Shown in pieces: positions 6,893 to 25,557 of a stretch of DNA of 64,000 bases. The position numbers and the translations under genes were made by a program. The stretch is taken from assembly GCA_002269645.1 (NCBI GenBank), contig NIVC01000440.1, positions 1 through 64,000 on the forward strand, given 5' to 3'. The notes beneath the pieces were generated by a model. It was not told the origin of the DNA. It did not search any database and saw only the letters and a program-made list of their open reading frames with translations. This DNA comes from Macrostomum lignano. Lineage: Eukaryota. The stretch's first letter is position 1, and every line of letters begins with the position of its first letter.

Positions 6893-9800
6893 CAGGTACA
6901 CCGCTTGCACAAGTTTATTATGATTTATTATGTCTAATAATTCTGTTCCTTGCGATGGAAAACACCTATTGAAAACATAAGGCTGCTACATTTACATGTA
7001 AGCTTTCAAAATACGTTTGTATCAACCCCAAATCTCTGTATTTATTTTCACAAGATGTTTTACAGTTATTTTTGTTTTAACAGCTGCTGGATGCCTAGGC
7101 ACCTCTTGCACTTCAGTTCAAATCCGTTTTTTGCTCAAGAATTTTACCCTTTTATGATGCAATCAATCATTGTTAATATATACAGTTAATTATAATGGAA
7201 ACTCAGCCACTCATTTTGCGTGTATATGCCTACGTCGACTGTACGTCAAGAGACATTATAAAATGATATCATAATTTAAAATCAATTTTGTTTAAACGCT
7301 AGATGTTAAATCGCAGTCACGGGAACTAAAATTCTCTGAAAAATATTTTCTTTACATTGACGCGTTTAGGATTTTAATAGCTAGCTTTAGACGATAGAAC
7401 CAGTATTTTTTTGGTTTACTTATTTATTTAAGAGAAGAAAATCGTTCTAGCAAAAGAGCCACGCAAGGACAACTAAAGCAACGTATATACAGGACGCGAC
7501 ACTCAAAATCTATGGAAAATGTTTTGAAGGCCACTTTTCGCCGAAAAATACACTATGGAGATAGGAAGTTTTCATTTTTTCAGCACAAAAATTGTTATTG
7601 CTTTCGATAGGAGGCAGACCCAATGTTGATCTTTTGATATGCTGTGCCGTTCTTATAGCTCTATTGATATTCATAAAGCTTTTCGGTCAGAAAATTAGGA
7701 ATCGAAGTAATTTTTTTATTCTACGCACAGTTGCATGTGTCATGTGCCTAAAAACCATTAAAATGGCACATTGGTTTTATGAATCTATTTTATCATTCTT
7801 GGCTGGCTGTGTAGCAATATGTGTAACAGAGATGATAAAATAGATTCATAAAACCAAATATTCGGAGCTGTGCCATGCATATCTATGATATTTAGATACA
7901 GGAAATGTACGTAGAATAAAAAATTAACACATAGAATCCTAATTTTCTGAATGTTATAGGGGGTGTTTAATTATTATAAACGATCTCACCGACGTCACCA
8001 AGTTGTCGGAGGGGTATTTGAACTAAGTTGGGAATCCTACAATTTCCACCAAATTGTGGTAGTGCTCTAAAGTTACAAGTTCTATCCTAATAGCTAACAC
8101 CAAGTTGTTGTAGGTGATTTTTATGCCTATTCACAATTTCACTGCTATTGCCAAGTGGTACTGGGGTGAAATTTGTTATGATTCTAGAATTTCATAAAAT
8201 TAGCTATTAAATTAGTTATGAACTACTAAAAGACTGGGTCACGGAGTTAGGCCTATGGGCTTTCACGTAAGCACGGATTGCCCTGGTAGCGCGCAGTGCC
8301 CGAGCGGCAAGACACTGTTTAGCTAGAAAAGGGGGGGGTGACTAAGTCCTAAAGCAGCGCCCTCCAATGGATCGAGGTTGCCCGGTGAATTTCAGTTTCC
8401 TCTTACGGATTTGCTTTTGTCATATACGACTTCCCATTGGTTGTTCAATTCGAATATTTCTATTGGGATTTTTCTCCCTCTTCAATTGGCTCTCTACGCC
8501 TCTACTGTTCGCGGTTCCGCTATTGGCTTTTAGACTGATCGTCTTGAGCTTTCGGTAAATTCTACCTGGCCAATGAGCATTCGCTCTTTATTCTTGGCAA
8601 ATGAGGAAGGCTTTAGCAAAATTCGCTTATTCAGTTTGTTAGGCAGATAGCCTTGAACCAAAAACTCGGTTGCCTCTCTGGGCGCTGAATTCGCGTCTAT
8701 TTATACTACCTAGGTCTACCTAGAATTTTAGCTATGTTTGAAGTCTAAATTTAGTCTATACTACCAAAAAGAGGGGGAGGGGGGAGGAAGAGCGTATTCA
8801 AACAAATATCTTCCAAAAAAAACGGTCACTAAGAAAAACGGCGGGGATTCAAAATAAACCCTTTCTCATGAACGAAAAGCTTTTTGAAGTGACAACCGCG
8901 CAGGCTAGGATCATCGATAAGCCAGCCATATAGGATATAGCATTGCAGTGTTCCTGTTTATGCTCTAAAATTTAAACATACGGAACGTTACAGGCTAGAG
9001 CCGCGGTGTCTACATGCAGCCACAATTGGCAGAAATACGGCAGTCGATGTTTAGGCGGCAGAGCTGCTTAAAATATTGATCAGAAAAAATCTGCACTGCA
9101 CACTATAACACAGATCCACAGTCAACCATGAACGCAATTATGCTGATATGTTTAATGTACAATACACATTCTTTCGAGTCTGCATGTCGACTGCTTGACC
9201 ATAACTTTTGATATGTACTTCTTCAATATGATCGAGTATGAGTATGAGAGCGGTCACCGACAACTGCAACATAACATATATCATGTGGATGTTCTTGGGC
9301 CAAGGGCCTTGAGTCCTTAAATGATTTCGATGCTGTCCTCTCCCACCTCGATCAATTATACCTGTACACATGTAGTGCACCGGTGTCTATTTTTATGCTG
9401 CCTTTATTTTTATGGCGAATTTTCCGGACTGTGTGAGGTCCGGACTTGGGTGAAATGCACCTTAATTTATTTCATATCTTATTTATAAAAAAAATTTTTT
9501 TATAAATATTTGTATAATCTATTTTTGGAATTAAAGTAGTTAGATATATTATTGAAACTGGATGGACTCAAATTCTGGGACAACTACACAATTTTAACAG
9601 CTACCACAGCACCTAGAAACCTAATACCAAACATAGCACATTTGTGTTTCAAATACAAAAGGAGTTACCATATAGTAAAACAATAGTAATAGAGCATGTA
9701 CAGTAAGTATTGCAGAATAGGAACACACTACTGAATAAATACTGACTAAAATAATTAATAGATAATTTCTAGGAATGCAGGATACATTATAAAAAAGTAC

Positions 9801-10005
9801 AATCATTCGAATGATATATAAAAATACTTTACAATTACTATTTTTAGTTAATAGGTCTAGGCCTAGTCTTTGAGTCACTATTGGTCAGATTAGCTATCAC
9901 TATTTAGCCAGGGGTGTTAACTAATTTGCCTTGGCAATAAACATGTTTAGCAATAGAGATTCACTAGTATAAATATAGCAAAAGCAAATTCAGCAGCAAT
10001 ATAGT

Positions 10006-10999
10006 TGTAACGTTTGGTCTCTGATTCGTCTCGAGGTGGCCTGGCAGGTCTTTGTATCCCACCGCTGCCACCAGTGAAGTACTTCTCCTTCTCGGGTTCT
10101 CGAAGATGTTCCTAGCAAATAGAACCCGCTGCTCCTGAAGAAGCTAGATAGCACCGCAGTACTACCTATCGATTTGCCTGAAAATGAACCTAAAACGTTG
10201 GCCTTGACTTGGTAGGGTTGCTGCCACCTTGGTGTGCGGACTCGACGTGTCGGCAGAGTTGTCTATCCGTCACCTGAAATAAAATTAACGAAGACACTCG
10301 TAGCAAAGGCCAAATCTGAAAATGTCTCAACAGTCGATTGTCTTAGTTGAATGCTACTCAGACCTGAAAACCTGTAAAACCTGAAATGAGAGAGGAGAGC
10401 TCGGAGGCAGAGGCTTCACGAGTTAGCCATAATGCTCCGCGAGACGACGCAGTCTACGACACGGTCTGGAGAAAATTGGCTCGCAGATGCTCCGTATTTA
10501 TAGACGAGCGGACCCCCAAAAGTCACGTGAGTTTCATGCGGTGAGCGCGTGAAACTTCCTTATTTGGGCATTGGAATCATGCGAACGACGCGTGATCCAA
10601 GGCCAACTTCCAAATAAGGCAACCCTGTCACGCAGCAGTGGCGTGACTCAAGGTCAGCGGCCACGCACAGAGTGCGTGCACAGTCACGTGCTTAGTCTGT
10701 GCTAAAAATAGAATCGTGGGCGGATGAGTCATCCTGTTTACTCCCTCTAGGCAGCCCTTACACTCCGCGCAGGTGATGAGTCATCCTGCTACGCCTCCTC
10801 AGCGCGAGTGGGAAGACATTGAGTGTGGCTGCCCGCGCCCGCTCAGGCGATGAGTCATCGGGCAGTAAACACTTAGGCCCAGCACAGGGTAACTCTCTCA
10901 CTCGCTCAGGTGGACTGAGATACTGTGCAGCGGATCACAGCACTCTTAAGGAAAGCTAGTGAATGCTGCTGAATAGCCAGATAGCAGCCAGTCACTACA
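10006..10999 (-). repeat. 3' LTR (994 bp)
   Basis: Starts TGTAACG, ends CACTACA; 10510-10999 is identical to 19610-20099 (offset 9100). Confidence 0.95.
10496..10857 (-). promoter_or_regulatory. LTR U3 promoter/enhancer: TATA box, 2 ETS+CArG composites, 4 AP-1 sites, 2 CACGTG E-boxes (copy in the 5' LTR at +9100)
   Basis: TATAAAT (minus) 10496-10502; CCTTATTTGG 10558-10567 and CCAAATAAGG 10610-10619, each overlapping ACTTCC; TGA(C/G)TCA at 10644, 10725, 10777, 10851; CACGTG at 10524, 10685. Motif matches only; function not shown. Confidence 0.65.
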
Positions 11000-11521
11000 C
11001 TCTCCCCGTCCAAATTAAATTGCAGCAGCGGAACGATGATACAATTTTATTTGAAAAACAAAACGGCTCTAACAAGGCCACTGAAGTATTTATTGCTACT
11101 AAAGAAGAAAATCAATGCGCGCCAGTCAAAAAGATGGTGTACCACTGCGAAAAGGCAACGTGAACTACATGTCATATTAATTGCGGAATAAAATGTTGAT
11201 TACATGAGACAGTTTTTAGATTAGACTGCATAGTTGTAATGATGAGAGATATTTTAATTTTGAGATTTTTGAAAGAAAGATTTCCTGATTATTGATTAAT
11301 AGATTATTTAATAAAGTATAAATGTTGTCATGTAATTTAAAATTTTGTCGCATATAAACTACAGATGATGTCAACAGTTTAACTTGTTTGATGGTGTTTT
11401 TAATGAAAAATATTGATTTGAGCAAAAGTGACTTTGAGTAATAATAGAGCCAACCTTGAGCTCGCGGAAATAACTTTCACGAAATAACGGGTTGATGAAT
11501 TATTGGCCAAAATGGCTGAAG

Positions 11522-12634
11522 TCAAAAACGAACGAACTTATTAAAACCGGCCGGCACGTCAGCGGCGAGGCCTAAAAAGAACAGTAGTTTCAATATGGCC
11601 AGTTCTAACGATGAAGCGTGCGGCGGATGAGGCGGGAGAGCAGCGGCCGTTCGACGGGCGACCTCCTTTATGGCCCGCTGCCTCTCGTCCGGTGAGGCGG
11701 CTCGGAAATCCGCTCTGATTCCTTCTGGCCAACTTCGGCAGAGCTGCCCCTTTTGTCCGGCTGATACTAGGAGCTCAGTGAGGATGATGATGGCCTTCTC
11801 GGTGATGGAGCTCGGGCGATCGCTCTGAGTTTCTGCATCCACTAGCTGCGGTCGAGCCCGGATAGCAGCGCTAATCGCCTCCGCGAGTTCGGTCCGGCTG
11901 AATAGGCGGGGCGGCGACGGCACCGGTGACGGTCGGCGAAATCGAGGGGACGACGGCGTGGGCGGCGTTGGGACCTCGTCCAGATTGACAACGTCGGGTT
12001 GGGGCGGTGGTGTCAATACACCTAAATAGTGCCCTGGCGGTGGCGAGGATGACCGAGGCGGCGTGTGCAGCACATCCTCCCTTGGATTAAGAAGAGCCGG
12101 CGGATGCTCATTCGGCGAGACCTGCTCTCCCACGATGTCCTGGATAGGAGGCAGCAGGTCTTCACCGGACTCTTCCTGCAGGGAGCTACTCAGGCTGCCA
12201 AGCAAGTTGAGCAGTTCTCCGTCAGGCGCCTGAGCCTCACCCGATTGCTGCGGATTGGGAGTGCCTTGCACTGGCCGGCTGGGCGCTCCGCCCTGATGGT
12301 CGGCGGTAGCTGGAAGTCGGGCATCGAATGAATTAGCTAGGGCCGGATTTAATCTACGGCGAATGACCTCCGCCCTCTCGTTGGCAACCGCGAGACGATC
12401 CTCCAGCGATGAGGGCTGCAGCGGAGCGAGTCGGCGTACTTCGATCCGAGGCTCCTGTCTGCGCTGATCGTCCCAACGACTGCGGCGCCTATGCGTCGTG
12501 TCCTGGGCCGGCGTCGGTAGGGCTTGCGTTCGGCGAAGCGGCAGGGCAGGCCGCGTGCGCTTCCGGCCACTAGCTGGTGAGGGCGTCCTAGAAGGCTCGC
12601 GGTCGCGCCTCTTCCGGTTTTCTTTGCCCGTCAT
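11522..12634 (-). CDS. Gypsy ORF3, 370 aa, unknown accessory protein (basic/Pro-rich, not env-like)
   Basis: Uninterrupted ATG-initiated ORF between the pol stop and the PPT, same strand as gag/pol; no signal peptide or furin/fusion-peptide pattern visible. Confidence 0.75.
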   Translation of the reverse strand: MTGKENRKRRDREPSRTPSPASGRKRTRPALPLRRTQALPTPAQDTTHRRRSRWDDQRRQEPRIEVRRLAPLQPSSLEDRLAVANERAEVIRRRLNPALANSFDARLPATADHQGGAPSRPVQGTPNPQQSGEAQAPDGELLNLLGSLSSSLQEESGEDLLPPIQDIVGEQVSPNEHPPALLNPREDVLHTPPRSSSPPPGHYLGVLTPPPQPDVVNLDEVPTPPTPSSPRFRRPSPVPSPPRLFSRTELAEAISAAIRARPQLVDAETQSDRPSSITEKAIIILTELLVSAGQKGQLCRSWPEGIRADFRAASPDERQRAIKEVARRTAAALPPHPPHASSLELAILKLLFFLGLAADVPAGFNKFVRF

Positions 12635-12638
12635 GCTT

Positions 12639-15600
12639 TTAATGTTGCTTTACAGCGCTGGAACAGGCACGAGGCCGGCGGAAAAAGTTGATTAACCGGC
12701 TCAAGTAGGACTTTGACTTTGGTTTAAGAACCAAGCGGTCAGGTTCCCTTCGAGCCCTAACTGGCCTGTCATTGACGGCCCATTCGACTTGACTAGTTGA
12801 TGGCAAATTGGCCGACAAAACATGACTATTATTTGGCAAATTGGCCGACATAACATGACTATTACATTGATTATTCCTATCAGAGTCTAGGTTAATCCTA
12901 TCGCTAATTTCAATTTCAGGTCGCCTCTGCGTTTCAGCTGTAGGAGCGGATGGAGCGTCGCAAGAATCATACGGCAGTGACTCAAGCTCAACTCTATTCT
13001 CCATAACTTCAGGTTCCTGGATGCGGACTTCGGTTGGACGCGCGCCTGGCTGAGCAGCTGATCGGAGTCGCCAGCGATAGGCGGGTCTCGTGTCCAGGTC
13101 ATCTTCTTCGTCAGAGTCCTCAGAGATGGCGGGGAGTGTCGCAGCTCCGGCGTCAACCTGTCGAACTCGGCGTTGCTTCTTCGGTTCGGCTGGCCCTTCG
13201 AGATCTGCAATTGGATAATCTGAAGTGGGCACAAGGAGGAGGTTCCGGCGATGAACTACCATCTCGTCCGGTCGTTCTCGAGGGTGTCGAACCTTCCGTC
13301 GAATCTTGTAGACGACTTCTCCTTTGCTTTCCACCACTTCATACAACGATCTCCTTGGCCTGTGGAACTTCACTGCTTCGTCTTCGTGTAGGACCGGATT
13401 GTTCAAGAAGACGAGATCTCCCGGCTGTAGCTTCTTAGCTGCTGGTCGGTTCTCGTAGTATTCGTCTCGCGCTTGCTGATGCAGGCCTAGCCGTTCCTTG
13501 GCGAGGTCCGTGGCGTGCTTGAGGCGTTGCTGAAACTCTGCGACGTAATCAGGCAGGTTGGCATACTCCGGGAGTAGCTTCAATGAGTTGTCGAGAGGCA
13601 TCCTGTATTCTCGGCCATAGACTAAGAAGTAAGGCGTATAGCCTGTGACTGGATGAACGCTGGATCGAAGAGCAATCATGCACGCTGGCAGAAATGTGTC
13701 CCAATCGCGGTGATCGTGCTCAAGGAGACATGTCAGAATGCTCTTGATCTGCTTGTTCAGATTTTCTACCAGTCCGTTGGATGCTGGGTTGTACGGCGTC
13801 ATTGTCGTGTGCCTGATAGCGTAGAGATCACAGAACTTCTTGAAGGCGTTTCCTGTAAAGTTCGTGCCTTGGTCCGTGTGAATCCAAGCTGGAACTCCGT
13901 ATTCTGGAATAAATCGGTCCTGAAGTAATCGGATAACGGTTTTAGCTTTCTGATTTCTCATCGGATAAGCTATCGAAAACTTTGATGTCGCACAGCAAAG
14001 TGTCAGGATGTATCGATGACCTCCTTTGGACGGTTGCGCAATCGGTCCGATCACATCCATGTGAAGTCTTCCAAATACTTCGCAGACTGGAAAACTCTGT
14101 ACTGGCACTTGCTGTTTTCGTCGTGACTTGCTCTCTAGGCAGGTTCGGCATTTGCTGACGTAGGTCTCAATGGCTCGGACTAGACCTGTTCGCCAGAATC
14201 TTTCGCGCACACGTTGGGCGGTCTTACGCTGTCCTTGGTGTCCTGCTAAAGGCGAATTGTGGAGCTCGTTAAAAACTTCGTCGTCGAGAGCTACTGGTAA
14301 GACAATCTTCGGTGGTGTCTTTTTCCGTCAAGTTGATCATGAGTAGATCTCGCTCGAGGAATAGTAACTCGTAGTATCCAAGCAGATTCCGTTGCTCTCT
14401 GCTAAGTCGTAATCGATCGTCAAACGCTAGTTTCGGTTGATTCTCCTTGATCAACTTGTAAACGTAGCCAATAGCTGGGTCATCCTGTTGAGCTTTGATG
14501 AGCTTGTCGCGCGGCAATGGCGGATTCAGATGATCCGTAAGCAATGCTCGGCAGCGCGGCAGACTTTGAGAAGTTGCGAGCTGGGGAGATGCTTCAGCTG
14601 TACGTACTCTGTTCTCCTCGTATGCAGACTTCGTCACCTCTGCATAGGAACGCGTCAGTTTCGGCGTAGGACGAAGGCGCGTCATGGCGCAAGACATATC
14701 GTCCACGCGTTGATAATGGGTGGTCGGCTGCAGGCTCATGGAAGAGCAACGAGACGGCTCGACCTGCTGAGTCTGTCGGCTCATGGAAGAGCAGCGGGAC
14801 TCCTCAGCGGTAAATTTTCGACCGAGATCTGAGCAGTGGCGCTCGACTGGGAGGGCTGCTGGAGCGGTGGCCTCCGAATCTTCGTCCAAGTCAGTCTCCA
14901 AACTCTGTAGGTAGACCTGATGGCTGTCGTTGGAGAGGGCTGAGGATACAGTGGCCTCTTGAACTTCATCCAGATTGGTCTCCTTGAAGTGACGGCGAGC
15001 GTGGGTGGCTCGGCAGAGGGCTGCTGGTGCGGTGGCCTCTGTGTCTTCATCCAAGCTTGCTGTCTCCTGGCTTCGACGTGAACAGTGGAGAACTCGGCAG
15101 AGGGCTGCTGGTGCGGTGGCCTCTGGTTCGTTGTCCAAGTCGGTCTCTGCCTCTGGATCGCGATTGTGGGTCTCGGTTGTGAGGGCTGCTGGTGCGGTGG
15201 CCTCTGAATCGATGCCCGGATCAGTTTCCTTAATGCGGCGACACTCACGCTGAGTGGTGGCACCTGTCTCCTCGCGGTGGCAAGCCAGGACAGCGTCGAC
15301 GTCTTGGAGTACTCCGTAATCGCATTCTAACGGAGGCGTGTCCGGGCGTCTTGATAGCGCGTCGGCGTTGGTGTGGTCAGTACCCTTGCGATGGGAGATG
15401 GTGAACTGAAATTCGCTGATCCTCTGGACCCATCGACCTAGAATCCCTGTAGATTCAGTCTGACGTAACAGCCAGAGCAAGGCCTTATGGTCACTTCTTA
15501 CTTCAAACTTCTTTCCTATTAAGTATTCTCGAAAGTGTCGCATGGCATCGACGATAGCCAGTAGCTCCCGCTTGGTGACCGTGTAGCGAACTTCCGGGTC

Positions 15601-17762
15601 ACGGAGCTTGCGACTGAAAAAGGCGATCGGTCGTTCTATTCCATCGGATTGTAGTTGTCCTAGACAGGCACCGATTCGGGTGTCGGATGCGTCGGTATCC
15701 AGGATGAACTTGACCTTCGGATCCTCATTGAACTCTGGGAGGGCGAGTACTTCGGTTGAGCATAGCTTGCTCTTCAGAGTCTCAAAGGCAGTCTGATGCT
15801 GCTGCGTCCAATGACGCTGGAATCCTTGCAGGTCCTTACGTGTCAATGCGTGTAACGGGGCCGCGATGCCCGAGTAATCTTCGACGAACTTCTTGTAGTA
15901 ATTGGCGAGACCAAGAAAGCTTCGTGTTGACGAACAGTCCGAGGCGTTGGCCAACTGCGTATCTGCTCAATCTTGTCTTCGCTTGTCCGTAGGCCTTCCG
16001 GCGTAATCACGTGGCCTAGATAGTGGAGCTCCTTCTTAAATAAATGGCATTTCTTCGGCTTTAGCTTCAAGTTGGCGGCTATGATTCGGTTTAGGACTTG
16101 TCGTAGACGGCCTAAGTGATCTTCGAACGTCACTGCGTGTACAACGATGTCGTCCATGTAACCAAGAGCGGCCTGCGGTGCTAGTCCTTCTAGCAGTTGG
16201 TTGATACAACGCTGGAACGATCCGGGGCTGTCGGTGAGTCCCATTGGTAGCACCTTGAAGCAGAATTGTCCACGATCGAGCACAGAGAAGGCAGTGATGT
16301 CCTGGTCTTCCTCGCGGAGAGGGATCTGGTAGAAGCCTTGTACCAGGTCGAGGCTTGAGTACCACTGCGCTCCTTTGAGTTTGGCGAAAGTTTCCTGAAT
16401 GTGCGGGATCGGGTACGGGTGCTTCAGCGTCACATCGTTGATCGCTCTGAAGTCGTGCACAATGCGAATCGTCTTGTCCTTTTTTGGCACTAGGATCATC
16501 GGCGAATTGTAACTGGAGTACGTTGGCCGAATGATGCCTTTCTTCAGCATATCATCGAGCATCTGATCCAATTGCGGTCGTAGATGCGGAGGTATCCGGC
16601 GAGGAGGAATCGCGATTGGCGTCGAGTCTGTGAGCACTATCTCATGAGTTACCAGGTGAGTCAGTCCGTGGTCCAACGGAGTTAGGGAGAATGCCTTCTC
16701 GCATTCCTTGAGTACTTCTTGAACCTGGTGCTTCTGGTGGCTGTTCAGCTGGTCTCCGATGTCGACCTCGTTGATCCAACTGTCAGTCGTTTCTTCAGTC
16801 GTATTCAGTTGACGGACTTCTGGCTCGTTCGACTCGCTGAAGTACTCGAGGTCCTGGGTCTTGAGTGGCGTGGCTACTCCCAATAGCATGTTGCGACGCA
16901 AGTGAACCTCTGTGTCTGATGGGTTGAGTACTTCCATCACTCCTCGACCTTCTGTCATCGTGTGCAGGACCGGGGCTGCGTCTAACTGGTGATGCTTCGC
17001 TCGCAGTCCTGATTTGAGCGGTTCGATAATCATCGGTGAACCGTAGTTCTGCTGATGACCTTCGGCTAGTTTAATGGCGACGAGGCAGGAACATTGAGGC
17101 GGCAGAGTGCATTTTTCAGCGACGTACACTCGGCAGGCCTTCAGTTCTCTCCTTGAATAGCGTACCGGAAGTCGGGTGCCTTGTCGGAATGTGAGCATTC
17201 CTTGCTGGAAGTCCAGTCCTTGGCAGTGACTCCGCATGAAATCGATTCCTAAAAGATTTTCACAGTCTCCTTCGGCGACGAAGAATTCGGTTTCCGCGAC
17301 ATAGTCCCCGAATTCGATTGATAGGATAACCTTAGCGGCGAGACTTAACTCGGTCCCGTCGTACATAGCGACTCGGTTAGGGTAAGCAGGTGCGACTATA
17401 CAACGTGGTGAACGACGCCTAATGGCGGCCCAAGTGGACGCTCCGAGGAAGTTTCTTCTGCTTCCGCTGTCTAGCAGAAAGGCGACCTCTCGTCGAGCCA
17501 CTCGTCCTGTAATAAATGGGTCGGCGTCACGCGCATGGACAGTATTTACAAAGGAGGCGTCCACGAAACCTCCATCGTCCGTTTCTTCGATTACTGACGA
17601 CTCGGACGAGTCAGCTGCCGCGGCTGCGGGGCCATACTCTTCCGGGGCGTGTTCGTTGTCGGCTGCATAGCCTGGGCTGGAGCTCGGGGGGCGTTGCCGT
17701 TTACGTCCTCCGGCCGGCCGTTTCCCGTAAACTGCTGAGATGATTGGCGTCTGTACGGACAA
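12639..17762 (-). CDS. pol: Gypsy pol (protease, RT, RNase H, integrase), split by two single-base frameshifts (~15928 and ~14320)
   Basis: LDSG protease; LDLVQGFYQI and YMDD RT motifs; DASD, ELLAIV, SDH, ADALSR RNase H; HHCC, MDVIGP, TDQG-35-E integrase. Confidence 0.95.
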
Positions 17763-18769
17763 TCTCTCGCCTTGTGTCCGTCTTGATTACACTCGTAGCA
17801 CGTGTAGTTCGGCGGTCGGTTCGCTTGACCGATCACTTGATTGGCTGTGACTTGCTGAGCCAACGTGTTAAGCAGATGCTGCTGCTGCTGCATCATTGCG
17901 GCTTGTTGCTCAACGACTTTCTCCAACTTCGAGAGGGCGCTGTTGTTGTTCTCCTTCGAGGCTTGTCCCTCCCCGTCCAACATTCTGACCGGGGGCTTTT
18001 TCGAACGATGAGCCAGGTCTTTGGCTAATTCCATCCTCTTCAGTGCTCGCAAGGCTTCGCTGAGTGTCGTAGGTCGGATCCAGAAAAGTTTCTCGCGGCA
18101 GTCTGATGACGTGCGAATCCCGCGCAGGAACTGGTCGATCAGTTCTTGCTCTAGATGGCGAGGCTCGAGCCAAGGGAAGGCTTGCTCTCCTAGCTCCTGC
18201 AGAGCATCGGCGTAATCTTCCGTTGATTCGTTCTTGCGCTGGTTGCGACCTCTGAATTCCTCTCGATATTCGTCTGGTCCTGAGAGTCGTGCGAATCTCT
18301 CTATTAGTCGTTGCTGAAGCTGTCGATAGCTGATGCGGTCGGGCAGCCTCATGCGAAGTACCGCGGCGTAGGCCGAATTTAAGTCTAAATTCGCCAGCAA
18401 TTGGGCCTTCTTGTCGTCTTCATCCTGTAGATCTTCTGCCTCGCATCGTAGGTCGAAAGCCTTTAGCCAAACGCGGATGTCCTGCGATGGCGTGTAGCTC
18501 TTCATCTTGACTTGCTTCTTAGGCTGTAGATCGAGCTGACGTTGCATGGCCTGCAGCATCCTGCGGATCATGTCCGGGTTGGTGTCGCGTCCGAGGTTGT
18601 TGAGTCCTGCAAACGAATCTTCCTCCTCCTCTCTTGAGTCGTCTCTAAAATTAAATCTTAAACCACATGGTATGGGCGAACCTGCAGCAGCTGCGGCGGA
18701 GTTTCCGTTGTCCTGACGCGTGTGCTGCTGATCACCGATGAGATCTTCTCGATCACTGTCGTGAGACAT
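17591..18769 (-). CDS. gag: Gypsy gag with CCHC zinc knuckle
   Basis: 392 aa ORF; QRKNESTEDYADALQEL capsid-like segment, DQFLRGI, CYECNQDGHKARDC; overlaps pol in the -1 frame. Confidence 0.93.
   Translation of the reverse strand: MSHDSDREDLIGDQQHTRQDNGNSAAAAAGSPIPCGLRFNFRDDSREEEEDSFAGLNNLGRDTNPDMIRRMLQAMQRQLDLQPKKQVKMKSYTPSQDIRVWLKAFDLRCEAEDLQDEDDKKAQLLANLDLNSAYAAVLRMRLPDRISYRQLQQRLIERFARLSGPDEYREEFRGRNQRKNESTEDYADALQELGEQAFPWLEPRHLEQELIDQFLRGIRTSSDCREKLFWIRPTTLSEALRALKRMELAKDLAHRSKKPPVRMLDGEGQASKENNNSALSKLEKVVEQQAAMMQQQQHLLNTLAQQVTANQVIGQANRPPNYTCYECNQDGHKARDCPYRRQSSQQFTGNGRPEDVNGNAPRAPAQAMQPTTNTPRKSMAPQPRQLTRPSRQ
17720..17726 (-). other. Candidate -1 ribosomal frameshift site G GGA AAC
   Basis: X XXY YYZ heptamer correctly phased in gag (acG GGA AAC) within the gag/pol overlap. 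Confidence 0.75.
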
Positions 18770-19010
18770 CTTGATGCTGACTTAGTCGTGGTAGGCGTGA
18801 CTGATGACGTGTCCGAAAGGGTGATAGTTGAGTGACGTTGACGTCGATTCGGTGACGTTCTCCTGCTTGCTTGCTGTATCCCGTATCTCGAATCTCGAAT
18901 CCTTTGTCTCGAATCTCGAATCCTTTGTCTCGAATCTCGGATCTCAAATCCTTTGTCTCGAATCTCGAATCTCGAATCTCGAATCTCGAATGTCGTATCC
19001 CGAATCTCGA

Positions 19011-19175
19011 ATCTCACCGCTGTTCCACCAGTGTAACGTTTGGTTGTCTCTGATTCGTCACGAGGTGGCCTGGCAGGTCTTTGTATCCCACCGCTGCCAC
19101 CAGTGAAACGTTTTGGTTGTCTCTGGGTTGTCTCGAGGTGGCCTGGCAGGTCTTAGTATCCCACCGCTGCCACCA
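19011..19175 (-). other. Three tRNA-Leu primer-binding-site-like sequences
   Basis: ATCCCACCGCTGCCACCA (3' 18 nt of metazoan tRNA-Leu(AAG), from recall) at 19085-19102 and 19158-19175; degenerate copy at 19011-19030; another copy at 10056-10073. Confidence 0.85.
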
Positions 19176-20099
19176 GTGAAGTACTTCTCCTTCTCGGGTT
19201 CTCGAAGATGTTCCTAGCAAATAGAACCCGCTGCTCCTGAAGAAGCTAGATAGCACCGCAGTACTACCTATCGATTTGCCTGAAAATGAACCTAAAACGT
19301 TGCCGTTACTTGGTAGGGTTGCTGCCACCTTGGTGTGCGGACTCGACGCGTCGGCAGAGTTGTCTATCCGTCACCTGAAAGAAAATTAACAAAGTCGCTC
19401 GGAGCAAAGGCAAATCTGAAAAATGTCTCGACAGTCGATCGTCTTAGTTGAATGCTGCTCGAACCTGAAACCTGTAAAACCTGAAATGAGAGAGGAGAGC
19501 TCGGAGGCAGAGGCTTCACGAGTTAGCCACAATGCTCCGCGAGACGACGCAGTCTACGACACGGTCTGGAGAAAATTGGCTCGCAGATGCTCCGTATTTA
19601 TAGACGAGGGGACCCCCAAAAGTCACGTGAGTTTCATGCGGTGAGCGCGTGAAACTTCCTTATTTGGGCATTGGAATCATGCGAACGACGCGTGATCCAA
19701 GGCCAACTTCCAAATAAGGCAACCCTGTCACGCAGCAGTGGCGTGACTCAAGGTCAGCGGCCACGCACAGAGTGCGTGCACAGTCACGTGCTTAGTCTGT
19801 GCTAAAAATAGAATCGTGGGCGGATGAGTCATCCTGTTTACTCCCTCTAGGCAGCCCTTACACTCCGCGCAGGTGATGAGTCATCCTGCTACGCCTCCTC
19901 AGCGCGAGTGGGAAGACATTGAGTGTGGCTGCCCGCGCCCGCTCAGGCGATGAGTCATCGGGCAGTAAACACTTAGGCCCAGCACAGGGTAACTCTCTCA
20001 CTCGCTCAGGTGGACTGAGATACTGTGCAGCGGATCACAGCACTCTTAAGGAAAGCTAGTGAATGCTGCTGAATAGCCAGATAGCAGCCAGTCACTACA
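19032..20099 (-). repeat. 5' LTR (996 bp from 19104, or 1068 bp including the extra PBS unit)
   Basis: Direct repeat of 10006-10999; ends CACTACA followed by TSD TAGT. Confidence 0.93.
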
Positions 20100-23300: not shown

Positions 23301-23654
23301 TAATATTGTTATGATTGGACATTTATCTGTTTTTTTCACATTGCCAGTTGTGTATACAGTCAGTATTTGCTAACTAATCAATAACTAACTACTGAGAGTA
23401 AAGTACATGCTGAACCACTGATTGAGGTTAGTTGAAACGTATGTATATTTTTGAACTAGCACAACAATTGCTATATTATTATATTCAATAATTTAGCTGC
23501 CCCTTTAAAAATGTGCAGATTTGCTTTGCAAAGAAATTAAATAAACTATGCTTTAAGTATCTTCATTGTTATGAGTTAACTATTCATTTATTTTAATAAT
23601 CAATATACGATTTCAGCGCCTAATTACAGTTAACTTAGGTAGCAGTACCCTACC

Positions 23655-25365
23655 CAAGTACCTGGGTTTGCAGGACCCTACCCTACTTGAATACCTGAGA
23701 TTACAGGACCCTACTTGAATACCTGAGATTACAGGACCCTACTTGAATACCTGAGATTACAGGACCCTACTTGAATACCTGAGATTACAGGACCCTACTT
23801 GAATACCTGAGATTACAGGACCCTACTTGAATACCTGAGATTACAGGACCCTACTTGAATACCTGAGATTACAGTACCCTACTCAAATACCTGAGATTAC
23901 AGTACCCTACTCAAATACCTGAGATTACAGTACCCTACTCAAATACCTGAGATTACAGTACCCTACTCAAATACCTGAGATTACAGTACCCTACTCAAAT
24001 ACCTGAGATTACAGTACCCTACTCAAATACCTGAGATTACAGTACCCTACTTGAATACCTGAGATTACAGGACCCTACTCAAATACCTGAGATTACAGTA
24101 CCCTACTCAAATACCTGAGATTACAGGACCCTACTCAAATACCTGAGATTACAGTACCCTACTCAAATACCTGAGATTACAGTACCCTACTCAAATACCT
24201 GAGATTACAGTACCCTACTCAAATACCTGAGATTACAGTACCCTACTCAAATACCTGAGATTACAGGACCCTACTCAAATACCTGAGATTACAGTACCCT
24301 ACTCAAATACCTGAGATTACAGTACCCTACTCAAATACCTGAGATTACAGTACCCTACTCAAATACCTGAGATTACAGTACCCTACTCAAATACCTGAGA
24401 TTACAGTACCCTACTCAAATACCTGAGATTACAGGACCCTACTCAAATACCTGAGATTACAGGACCCTACTTGAATACCTGAGATTACAGGACCCTACTC
24501 AAATACCTGAGATTACAGTACCCTACTCAAATACCTGAGATTACAGTACCCTACTCAAATACCTGAGATTACAGTACCCTACTCAAATACCTGAGATTAC
24601 AGGACCCTACTTGAATACCTGAGATTACAGGACCCTACTCAAATACCTGAGATTACAGGACCCTACTCAAATACCTGAGATTACAGGACCCTACTCAAAT
24701 ACCTGAGATTACAGTACCCTACTCAAATACCTGAGATTACAGTACCCTACTCAAATACCTGAGATTACAGTACCCTACTCAAATACCTGAGATTACAGTA
24801 CCCTACTCAAATACCTGAGATTACAGGACCCTACTCAAATACCTGAGATTACAGTACCCTACTCAAATACCTGAGATTACAGTACCCTACTCAAATACCT
24901 GAGATTACAGTACCCTACTCAAATACCTGAGATTACAGTACCCTACTCAAATACCTGAGATTACAGTACCCTACTCAAATACCTGAGATTACAGTACCCT
25001 ACTCAAATACCTGAGATTACAGGACCCTACTTGAATACCTGAGATTACAGGACCCTACTCAAATACCTGAGATTACAGTACCCTACTCAAATACCTGAGA
25101 TTACAGTACCCTACTCAAATACCTGAGATTACAGTACCCTACTCAAATACCTGAGATTACAGTACCCTACTCAAATACCTGAGATTACAGTACCCTACTC
25201 AAATACCTGAGATTACAGTACCCTACTCAAATACCTGAGATTACAGGACCCTACTTGAATACCTGAGATTACAGGACCCTACTCAAATACCTGAGATTAC
25301 AGTACCCTACTCAAATACCTGAGATTACAGTACCCTACTCAAATACCTGAGATTACAGTACCCTA
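23655..25365. repeat. 28-bp minisatellite, ~60 copies, intergenic
   Basis: CCTACTCAAATACCTGAGATTACAGTAC with CTCAAA/CTTGAA and GTAC/GGAC variants. Confidence 0.97.
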
Positions 25366-25557
25366 TATAAGTACCTGGGATTGCAGTACCCTACTCAAGT
25401 ACAATGGATTCTAAAACTCTGCGAGAGAGTATATACAATCATGCGTGGCGCCGAAATGAAGTAAATGGAGTAGAATGTACCTGAGGTTTTGTTGCCCTAC
25501 TTAGTCCTGCCCTACCCACATGTACTAATTCTGCGCATGCGATTCCAGCGCCCAAAA

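What the first reader, a model, noticed from the sequence alone, without database searches (positions are those of the whole stretch)
10178..10502. Outron-like cluster of six 3' splice acceptors in LTR R/U5, conserved in both LTRs
On the element strand, downstream of TATAAAT (10496-10502), lie a branch-point CTAAC (10422-10426), a polypyrimidine tract CTCTCCTCTCTC and TTTCAG|G (10381). Five further TTT(T/A)CAG-type acceptors follow at 10372, 10364, 10316, 10274 and 10178, with no good upstream GT donor. All six are retained in the 5' LTR (19280, 19375, 19416, 19465, 19472, 19481) although this segment carries ~17 differences between the LTRs. An unpaired acceptor near a TSS is the hallmark of spliced-leader trans-splicing, which is established in flatworms. 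It could also act as a gene trap. An alternative reading is a repeated CCTGAAA factor-binding motif.
Basis: partly seen in the sequence, partly recalled or inferred. Interest (0 to 1): 0.75.

Follow-up and report, generated by a model that had tools for sequence, protein, structure and literature searches.

The report
Splice-acceptor cluster in flatworm retrotransposon LTR
A jumping gene in a flatworm carries, just after its promoter, a run of RNA-splicing landing sites without a partner, a layout that would let it receive the host's spliced-leader cap, though no RNA showing this was found.

Summary
Six TT(T/A)CAG acceptors lie on the sense strand after the TATA box of both LTRs of a Ty3/Gypsy element (6 seen, 0.6 expected, 0 of 2000 shuffles; none antisense or in U3). 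The host has spliced-leader (SL) RNA genes, and the sites fit its published SL-acceptor motif. Across 69 LTR haplotypes position -3 toggles only C/T and no AG-breaking change is shared by 3 or more haplotypes, but AG conservation alone is weak (p 0.06; 0.24 in a second sample), and the two-LTR argument is worth little (chance about 0.3-0.5). 23 LTRs of other families lack the cluster. No RNA junction was seen; only assembled contigs were available, so this test is open. An unrelated Bel/Pao family in the same genome has the SL exon fixed in both LTRs, ending exactly at the SL donor: a fossil indicating that SL splicing onto LTR RNA happens here and survives copying. Best reading: SL trans-splicing of part of the element's RNA (about 0.5). 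Precedent: C. elegans Cer1. The scan earlier noted intron-shaped LTR units in fungi, a different design.

The parts
10006..10999 (-). 3' LTR (TG...CA, 994 nt) of a Ty3/Gypsy element
   Evidence: polypurine tract just upstream, target duplication ACTA at 10005-10002
19032..20099 (-). 5' LTR, with one extra 73-nt U5 unit
   Evidence: target duplication ACTA at 20103-20100
10495..10502 (-). TATA box (TATAAATA); partner at 19602-19595
   Evidence: present in most copies
10405..10466 (-). Hypervariable segment between presumed start site and first pyrimidine tract (candidate outron); holds CTAAC 10426-10422 in this copy
   Evidence: length and sequence differ widely among copies; start site inferred, not mapped
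10364..10400 (-). Pyrimidine tract and three tandem acceptors (10381, 10372, 10364)
   Evidence: 101 exact genomic matches to the first two sites; third unit missing in 4 of 40 second-sample loci
10316..10322 (-). Acceptor 4 (TTTTCAG|A)
   Evidence: AG broken in 4 of 69 haplotypes
10274..10290 (-). U-rich tract and acceptor 5, followed by a moderate donor-like GTGACG
   Evidence: a similar U-rich tract without the AG sits at the same place in sister families
10178..10196 (-). Acceptors at 10190 (TTTTAG) and 10178 (TTTTCAG), with CTAAC about 20 nt upstream of 10178 in many copies
19280..19481 (-). The same six acceptors in the 5' LTR, inside an 833-nt leader free of ATG
10006..10078 (-). 73-nt U5 unit beginning with a primer-binding-site-like word
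   Evidence: tRNA-Leu match is recalled, from no call
19011..19030 (-). Primer-binding site after the 5' LTR
17591..18769 (-). gag (Retrotrans_gag, CCHC knuckle); ATG at 18769 is the first ATG after the TATA box
12639..17786 (-). pol (RT, RNase H, integrase), in three frames in this copy
11522..12649 (-). Extra ORF (375 aa), no Pfam hit, no homologue found; acceptor-like CCAG about 25 nt before its ATG; AATAAA words before the polypurine tract

Best explanation
The LTR promoter is built like the 5' end of a trans-spliced host gene. Shown: a TATA box, then a short variable segment with no consensus donor, then a run of TTNYAG acceptors on the sense strand, in a leader without ATG, in a host that has SL RNA genes. 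Inferred: transcripts start about 25-30 nt after the TATA box; the first 70-110 nt act as an outron; for a part of the transcripts the spliceosome joins the SL exon at one of the acceptors, most likely the first with its pyrimidine tract, and the others are back-ups that are equivalent because no ATG lies between them and gag. The SL-capped RNA would serve as mRNA, while unspliced RNA (or spliced RNA whose repeat region extends past the acceptor) is copied, so that the LTR is rebuilt whole. The SL's own AUG opens only 3-38-codon frames, none running into gag, so the gain would be the cap or the mark of having been spliced, not a start codon.
For: Enrichment and strand bias. Host SL RNA genes. 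Published SL-acceptor motif YTNCAG, and the statement that an unpaired acceptor near the 5' end suffices for SL splicing (PMC8629364). Over 69 haplotypes and five sites, -3 is always C or T and varies at all five, -4 takes all four letters, and no AG-breaking change is shared by 3 or more haplotypes (0 of 10 positions against 34 of 154 other non-CpG positions); AG plus TT positions are less variable than background, p 0.007. The segment before the first acceptor is freely variable. A Bel/Pao family of the same genome has SL-derived sequence in 30 of 30 LTR loci shown, 4 of them with the full exon, ending exactly at the SL donor and 13 nt before the LTR end. Cer1 precedent.
Against: No genomic copy with SL joined at 10381, 10372, 10364 or 10274, 10178, although 101 copies match the cluster; site 10316 was not searched. 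AG conservation alone is not significant (p 0.06 overall, 0.24 in the second sample), the AG is broken in 6 of 345 site-by-haplotype cells, haplotypes are related, and alignment in T-runs flatters the TT positions. Three sites are one tandem triplication. 0 of 23 other LTRs show the cluster, and sister families keep ATG-poor leaders without it, so it is not needed for this kind of element. Contigs of probable RNA runs cross several acceptors unspliced.
Confidence: 0.5

Rival explanations
1. No splicing role: U-rich tracts of the LTR (likely 3'-end signals) and local slippage of an 8-10-nt word produced acceptor look-alikes in one young family, and they persist because the family is young.
For: Three sites are a tandem triplication, reduced to two in 4 of 40 loci; the tract before 10274 has an AG-less counterpart in sister families; the cluster is family-specific; AG-only conservation is not significant.
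Against: Five separate places, not one array, end in TTNYAG; all on the sense strand; -3 toggles only C/T and further sites appear at 10112 in many copies.
Confidence: 0.2
2. The sites are true 3' splice signals but work in the 3' LTR: they recruit U2AF to define a terminal exon and so set the poly(A) site in an LTR that lacks AATAAA, or trans-splicing there cuts read-through RNA as at an operon boundary.
For: No AATAAA in this LTR, whereas three other families have AATAAA before a U-rich tract at the matching place. Coupling of 3' splice sites to polyadenylation is recalled knowledge.
Against: The sister group L131/L132/L135 lacks both AATAAA and acceptors there. The poly(A) site is unmapped.
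Confidence: 0.13
3. Cis-splicing: a short leader intron (donor CAG|GTGACG at 10273 to acceptors 10190/10178), recursive AG|GT sites, or capture of host or U3 donors (gene trap).
For: Five of seven sites are followed by GT; a branch-like CTAAC precedes 10178 in many copies; two GTRAG words lie in U3. Parasitic flatworms share acceptors between cis- and trans-splicing (PMC12582326).
Against: No genomic copy has lost the candidate introns (0 hits); none of the 5 joints has GT..AG ends on the element strand; the first five sites have no consensus donor upstream within the transcript.
Confidence: 0.1
4. A repeated DNA-binding site (CCTGAAA read on the other strand) for a transcription factor downstream of the start site.
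For: The word CATTTTCAGG recurs almost unchanged at several sites.
Against: All copies face one way; -4 and -3 vary as in splice sites; two of six do not read CCTGAAA.
Confidence: 0.07

Closest known systems
Cer1 of Caenorhabditis elegans (Ty3/Gypsy; PMC3315495, passages read)
   Same: An LTR retrotransposon with an acceptor near its 5' end that receives the spliced leader, beside an unspliced long RNA for Gag and Pol.
   Different: Cer1 has one SL1 site, used on a cis-spliced 2.4-kb RNA, and it was shown by RT-PCR. Here there are 6-8 sites inside the LTR itself and use is not shown.
SL-bearing retroelement loci of parasitic flatworms (PMC12582326: 597 loci, mainly LTR and LINE; PMC5832876: six in Schistosoma mansoni; passages read)
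   Same: Both papers propose that retroelement transcripts receive the SL and are then reverse transcribed; the Bel/Pao LTRs found here fit that.
   Different: They report SL remnants, not acceptor arrays kept in an LTR, and in the passages read do not place the SL at a defined LTR position.
Outrons of SL-trans-spliced host genes in Macrostomum lignano (PMC8629364, part 2 of 4 and passages read)
   Same: YTNCAG acceptor near a 5' end with no donor upstream.
   Different: Those were defined by SL reads; here none was obtained, and the sites are duplicated at both ends of a mobile element.
ta-TRIM solo LTRs of Echinococcus (PMC4558846, passages read)
   Same: Flatworm LTR promoter interacting with a trans-splice acceptor.
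   Different: There the LTR gives the donor and the host gene the acceptor; here the LTR holds the acceptors.
Ty3/Mdg4 (Gypsy) families of M. lignano (PMC12801592, parts 1-2 of 6 and a term search)
   Same: The element is of this superfamily; LTR regulatory words arise family by family, as the heat-shock elements in that paper do.
   Different: The text has no occurrence of 'splic' or 'leader'. Its supplements were not read, so the family number is not assigned.

Membership tests
Ty3/Gypsy LTR retrotransposon | Two TG...CA LTRs, target-site duplication, PBS and PPT | tested here: met
Ty3/Gypsy LTR retrotransposon | gag, then RT - RNase H - integrase order | tested here: met
   protease not detected by Pfam at E 0.001
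Ty3/Gypsy LTR retrotransposon | Placement in a named clade by RT phylogeny | not tested
   no reference RT set was aligned
SL trans-splice acceptor (outron) | Host has SL RNA genes | tested here: met
   19 of 50 inspected SL hits followed by GTAAG
SL trans-splice acceptor (outron) | Acceptor fits YTNCAG on the transcribed strand | tested here: met
   6 of 6 named sites
SL trans-splice acceptor (outron) | No cis donor between start site and acceptor | tested here: met
   no GTRAG between TATA and 10160; met for the first five sites, doubtful for 10178 because of GTGACG at 10273
SL trans-splice acceptor (outron) | Start site upstream of the acceptors | not testable with these tools
   contigs cannot show starts; inferred from the TATA box
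SL trans-splice acceptor (outron) | SL joined to the acceptor in RNA | tested here: inconclusive
   0 of 24 loose ends shown (84 in all) carry SL; contigs only, runs not confirmed as RNA
Cis intron in an LTR leader | Donor-acceptor pair joined in RNA or lost in retrocopies | tested here: inconclusive
   0 intron-less copies; no canonical joint in contigs
Errantivirus-like (env-bearing) element | Third ORF encodes an envelope protein | tested here: not met
   no Pfam family and no homologue among 8000 scored candidates of similar length; structure not predicted

The most novel reading that the evidence does not exclude
This family has evolved a redundant outron inside its LTR so that its intronless RNA is handed the host's spliced-leader cap, splitting its transcripts into a host-like translated pool and an unspliced copied pool; in the same genome a Bel/Pao lineage went one step further and fixed the SL exon in its LTR. 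LTR retrotransposons would then routinely exploit SL trans-splicing in flatworms.
Probability: 0.3. Interest if true: 0.75.

Novelty: new variant of a known kind. Interest (0 to 1): 0.5.

Why it matters
SL trans-splicing removes the very 5' end that an LTR element needs for copying, so an element that invites it must have solved that conflict. If confirmed, this gives a simple system in a transgenic-tractable worm to ask what an SL cap does for a single-gene transcript, which PMC8629364 calls unclear, and whether mobile elements use it to pass as host mRNA in stem cells. About a hundred copies could also donate acceptors to neighbouring transcription units. The test needs only existing SL-read data.

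Tried and rejected
RNA: no holder was listed as RNA. Four contig sets (X1, X5, X7, X9; 4 of 24 runs) laid on 9400-13000 covered the LTR more than the interior; 24 of 84 loose ends were shown, none SL; 5 joints, none canonical; no claim on expression is drawn. SL-junction fossils: 0 hits. Intron-less copies: 0 hits. Idea that LTR-pair differences always cluster at the acceptors: seen in 2 of 6 pairs (window; C206 with 7), the other four have 0-2 substitutions, so a conversion tract, mixed templates or an assembly mosaic is as likely; unresolved. Idea that the A-run before the SL in Bel/Pao LTRs is a poly(A) relic: rejected, it is decay of the SL 5' part. Stable RNA structure over the leader: z -0.54, none. 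General feature of LTRs in this genome: rejected, 0 of 23 (15 of 38 fetched stretches had no LTR pair and were left out; two of the 23 may be tandem repeats). First conservation test (0 of 12 AG positions variable in 37 haplotypes, p 0.02) was biased to close copies and weakened in the second sample (2 of 40 loci left out as interrupted, 9 of 100 overall). ORF3 homologues: none. Literature: searches listed no paper on acceptor arrays in LTRs; subscription papers are not covered and supplements were not read.

Full report
What is there. The finding lies in the 3' LTR of a full-length Ty3/Gypsy element on the minus strand, 20099 to 10006, with a 4-nt target duplication, gag, a pol in three frames (RT, RNase H, integrase) and an extra 375-codon ORF. 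In the 336 nt after the TATA box TT[TA]CAG occurs 6 times against 0.61 expected (0 of 2000 shuffles), never on the other strand or in U3, and at background rate inside the element. Outside a 28-nt satellite, the two LTRs are the only 210-nt stretches of the window with six. The motif was picked after the fact, and three of the six are one tandem triplication, so the true surprise is smaller than the shuffle figure.

The host. The 3' 21 letters of the published Macrostomum lignano spliced leader match G000 61 times, the reversed control 0 times. Of 50 hits inspected, 19 are followed by the GTAAG donor of SL RNA genes, 12 lie in the LTRs of one other element family, and 19 are other SL-bearing DNA. 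PMC8629364 (part 2 of 4 and passages) gives YTNCAG as the top motif at SL acceptors, GTRAG at donors, about 30% of genes trans-spliced, and cites that an unpaired acceptor near the 5' end is enough. All six sites fit YTNCAG; there is no GTRAG between the TATA box and 10160. A moderate donor-like CAG|GTGACG at 10273 precedes the last sites.

Are the sites under constraint? The two-LTR comparison is weak: 14 substitutions and 4 indels between 10430 and 10201 would spare the 12 AG letters about half the time by chance. In five other LTR pairs the differences are 0-8, clustered after the TATA box in only one, so the window's pair is a mosaic of two family alleles. Copies say more. In 37 haplotypes from 53 close loci, 0 of 12 AG positions vary against 62 of 200 others (p 0.02; against other AGs 7 of 24, p 0.07). 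A second sample of 40 of the 101 pattern matches, chosen only by the first two sites, weakens this: the AG is broken at 10316, 10274 or 10178 in 6 haplotypes (about four events), p 0.24. Pooled over 69 haplotypes and five sites: AG alone p 0.06, AG plus the two upstream T p 0.007, no AG-breaking variant shared by three or more haplotypes (0 of 10 positions against 34 of 154), -3 always C or T and variable at all five sites, -4 taking all four letters. That is the grammar of a 3' splice site and not of a fixed DNA word, but haplotypes are related, C-T changes are common anyway, and T-runs align leniently. The named CTAAC is not constant; the segment between the presumed start and the pyrimidine tract varies freely in length and sequence, as an outron or a strand-transfer edge might.

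Context. The 833 nt from TATA box to gag hold no ATG; in five other elements the first ATG lies 571-697 nt after the TATA box. The SL's terminal AUG would open only 3-38-codon frames at these sites, none reaching gag. Other families of the genome lack the cluster: at most one TT[TA]CAG per 210 nt in 23 LTRs of 13 similarity groups, from 38 stretches examined. Sister families (gag 44-57% alike) keep ATG-poor leaders, primer-site-like U5 units and a U-rich tract like that before 10274, some with AATAAA before it; this LTR has no AATAAA. The cluster is therefore a trait of one family.

RNA. No run is on record as RNA and all are assembled contigs. Laying four of them showed no SL among 24 of 84 loose ends, no canonical joint, and contigs that cross several acceptors unspliced. 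Contigs drop rare forms, so this neither supports nor refutes. No genomic copy has the SL joined at five of the six sites or has lost a candidate cis intron.

A fossil of the mechanism. A Bel/Pao family (Peptidase_A17, DUF1759) with LTRs of about 270 nt carries SL-derived sequence in 30 of 30 loci shown (40 scored of 106 candidates). In 4 loci, probably two assemblies of one insertion, the whole exon is present with one mismatch, from the same first letters as in the SL RNA gene to the exact donor boundary, followed by the last 13 letters of the LTR and, at the 5' LTR, a primer site. The simplest history is SL splicing onto the element's RNA, reverse transcription to the cap, and strand transfer; template switching onto an SL-capped RNA is not excluded. 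It is another family, so it shows possibility, not use of the six sites.

Mechanism. Most likely (0.5) part of the transcripts from the TATA box are trans-spliced at one of the acceptors and translated, while unspliced RNA is copied. Anatomy, host machinery and motif fit are shown; start site, junction, share and benefit are inferred. Rivals: functionless look-alikes (0.2), 3'-end formation in the 3' LTR (0.13), cis-splicing or gene trap (0.1), DNA factor site (0.07).

Known systems and novelty. Cer1 of C. elegans receives SL1 on a spliced 2.4-kb RNA while its 8-kb RNA skips the site (PMC3315495, passages). SL remnants in LTR and LINE elements are reported for parasitic flatworms (PMC12582326, PMC5832876, passages). 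The catalogue of M. lignano LTR families does not mention splicing (PMC12801592; supplements not read and may bear on the family's identity). PMC4558846, PMC5730564 and PMC9911081 were seen as passages. Eight searches listed no acceptor array in an LTR. The scan's earlier notes concern donor-plus-acceptor units in fungal LTRs, which prompted the cis-intron tests. Verdict: a real, family-specific feature, a new variant of a known kind, unproven at the RNA level; interest 0.5.

Noticed in passing
L095:207-472 and 6951-7216; L094; L168-L197 (full exon in L184-L187): A Bel/Pao family has the spliced-leader exon fixed in both LTRs, ending exactly at the SL donor and 13 nt before the LTR end; most copies have a decayed 5' part and many a changed base just before the final ATG. 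At least 40 loci. This is directly visible in DNA and may be more interesting than the given finding.
   Followed up: partly
L047-L060, L044, L046, L063, L065, L066, L070, L075, L184-L187: SL RNA genes and SL-bearing DNA copies share about 10 more letters upstream of the 35-nt leader printed in PMC8629364, so the exon is probably about 45 nt; a longer version in an earlier paper is recalled, not checked.
   Followed up: partly
L034, L042, L043, L045, L062, L064, L067, L076-L078: Other repeated DNA with an embedded SL part, not SL RNA genes; L064/L078 hold a second, decayed SL copy right behind the first.
   Followed up: no
window 10006-10078 and 19032-19180; 18885-19015: U5 grows by 73-nt units that begin with a primer-site-like word and end like the LTR; copies end at three or more different places, and sister families show the same build. 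A 7-nt repeat after the primer site extends the tRNA-like match (recalled).
   Followed up: partly
window 11522-12649: Extra ORF after pol, proline-rich, no family or homologue; 62-97% alike in five other copies while gag is 96-98% alike; sister families have unrelated-looking ORFs at the same place. It has an acceptor-like site before its ATG and AATAAA words before the polypurine tract, so it may have its own mRNA.
   Followed up: partly
window 10201-10430 against 19303-19530: The two LTRs differ at 18 places in 230 nt but at one in the 497 nt of U3: a conversion tract, mixed templates or an assembly mosaic.
   Followed up: partly
window 14781-15326: An insert of repeated units (period about 84 nt) between RNase H and integrase, in frame.
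   Followed up: no
window 23540-25500 (+): 28-nt satellite of about 60 units, each holding a TT[TA]CAG word.
   Followed up: no
G000 C1211-C1214, C3830, C4525, C4853: SL RNA genes in tandem arrays spaced about 11.4 kb or longer apart.
   Followed up: no
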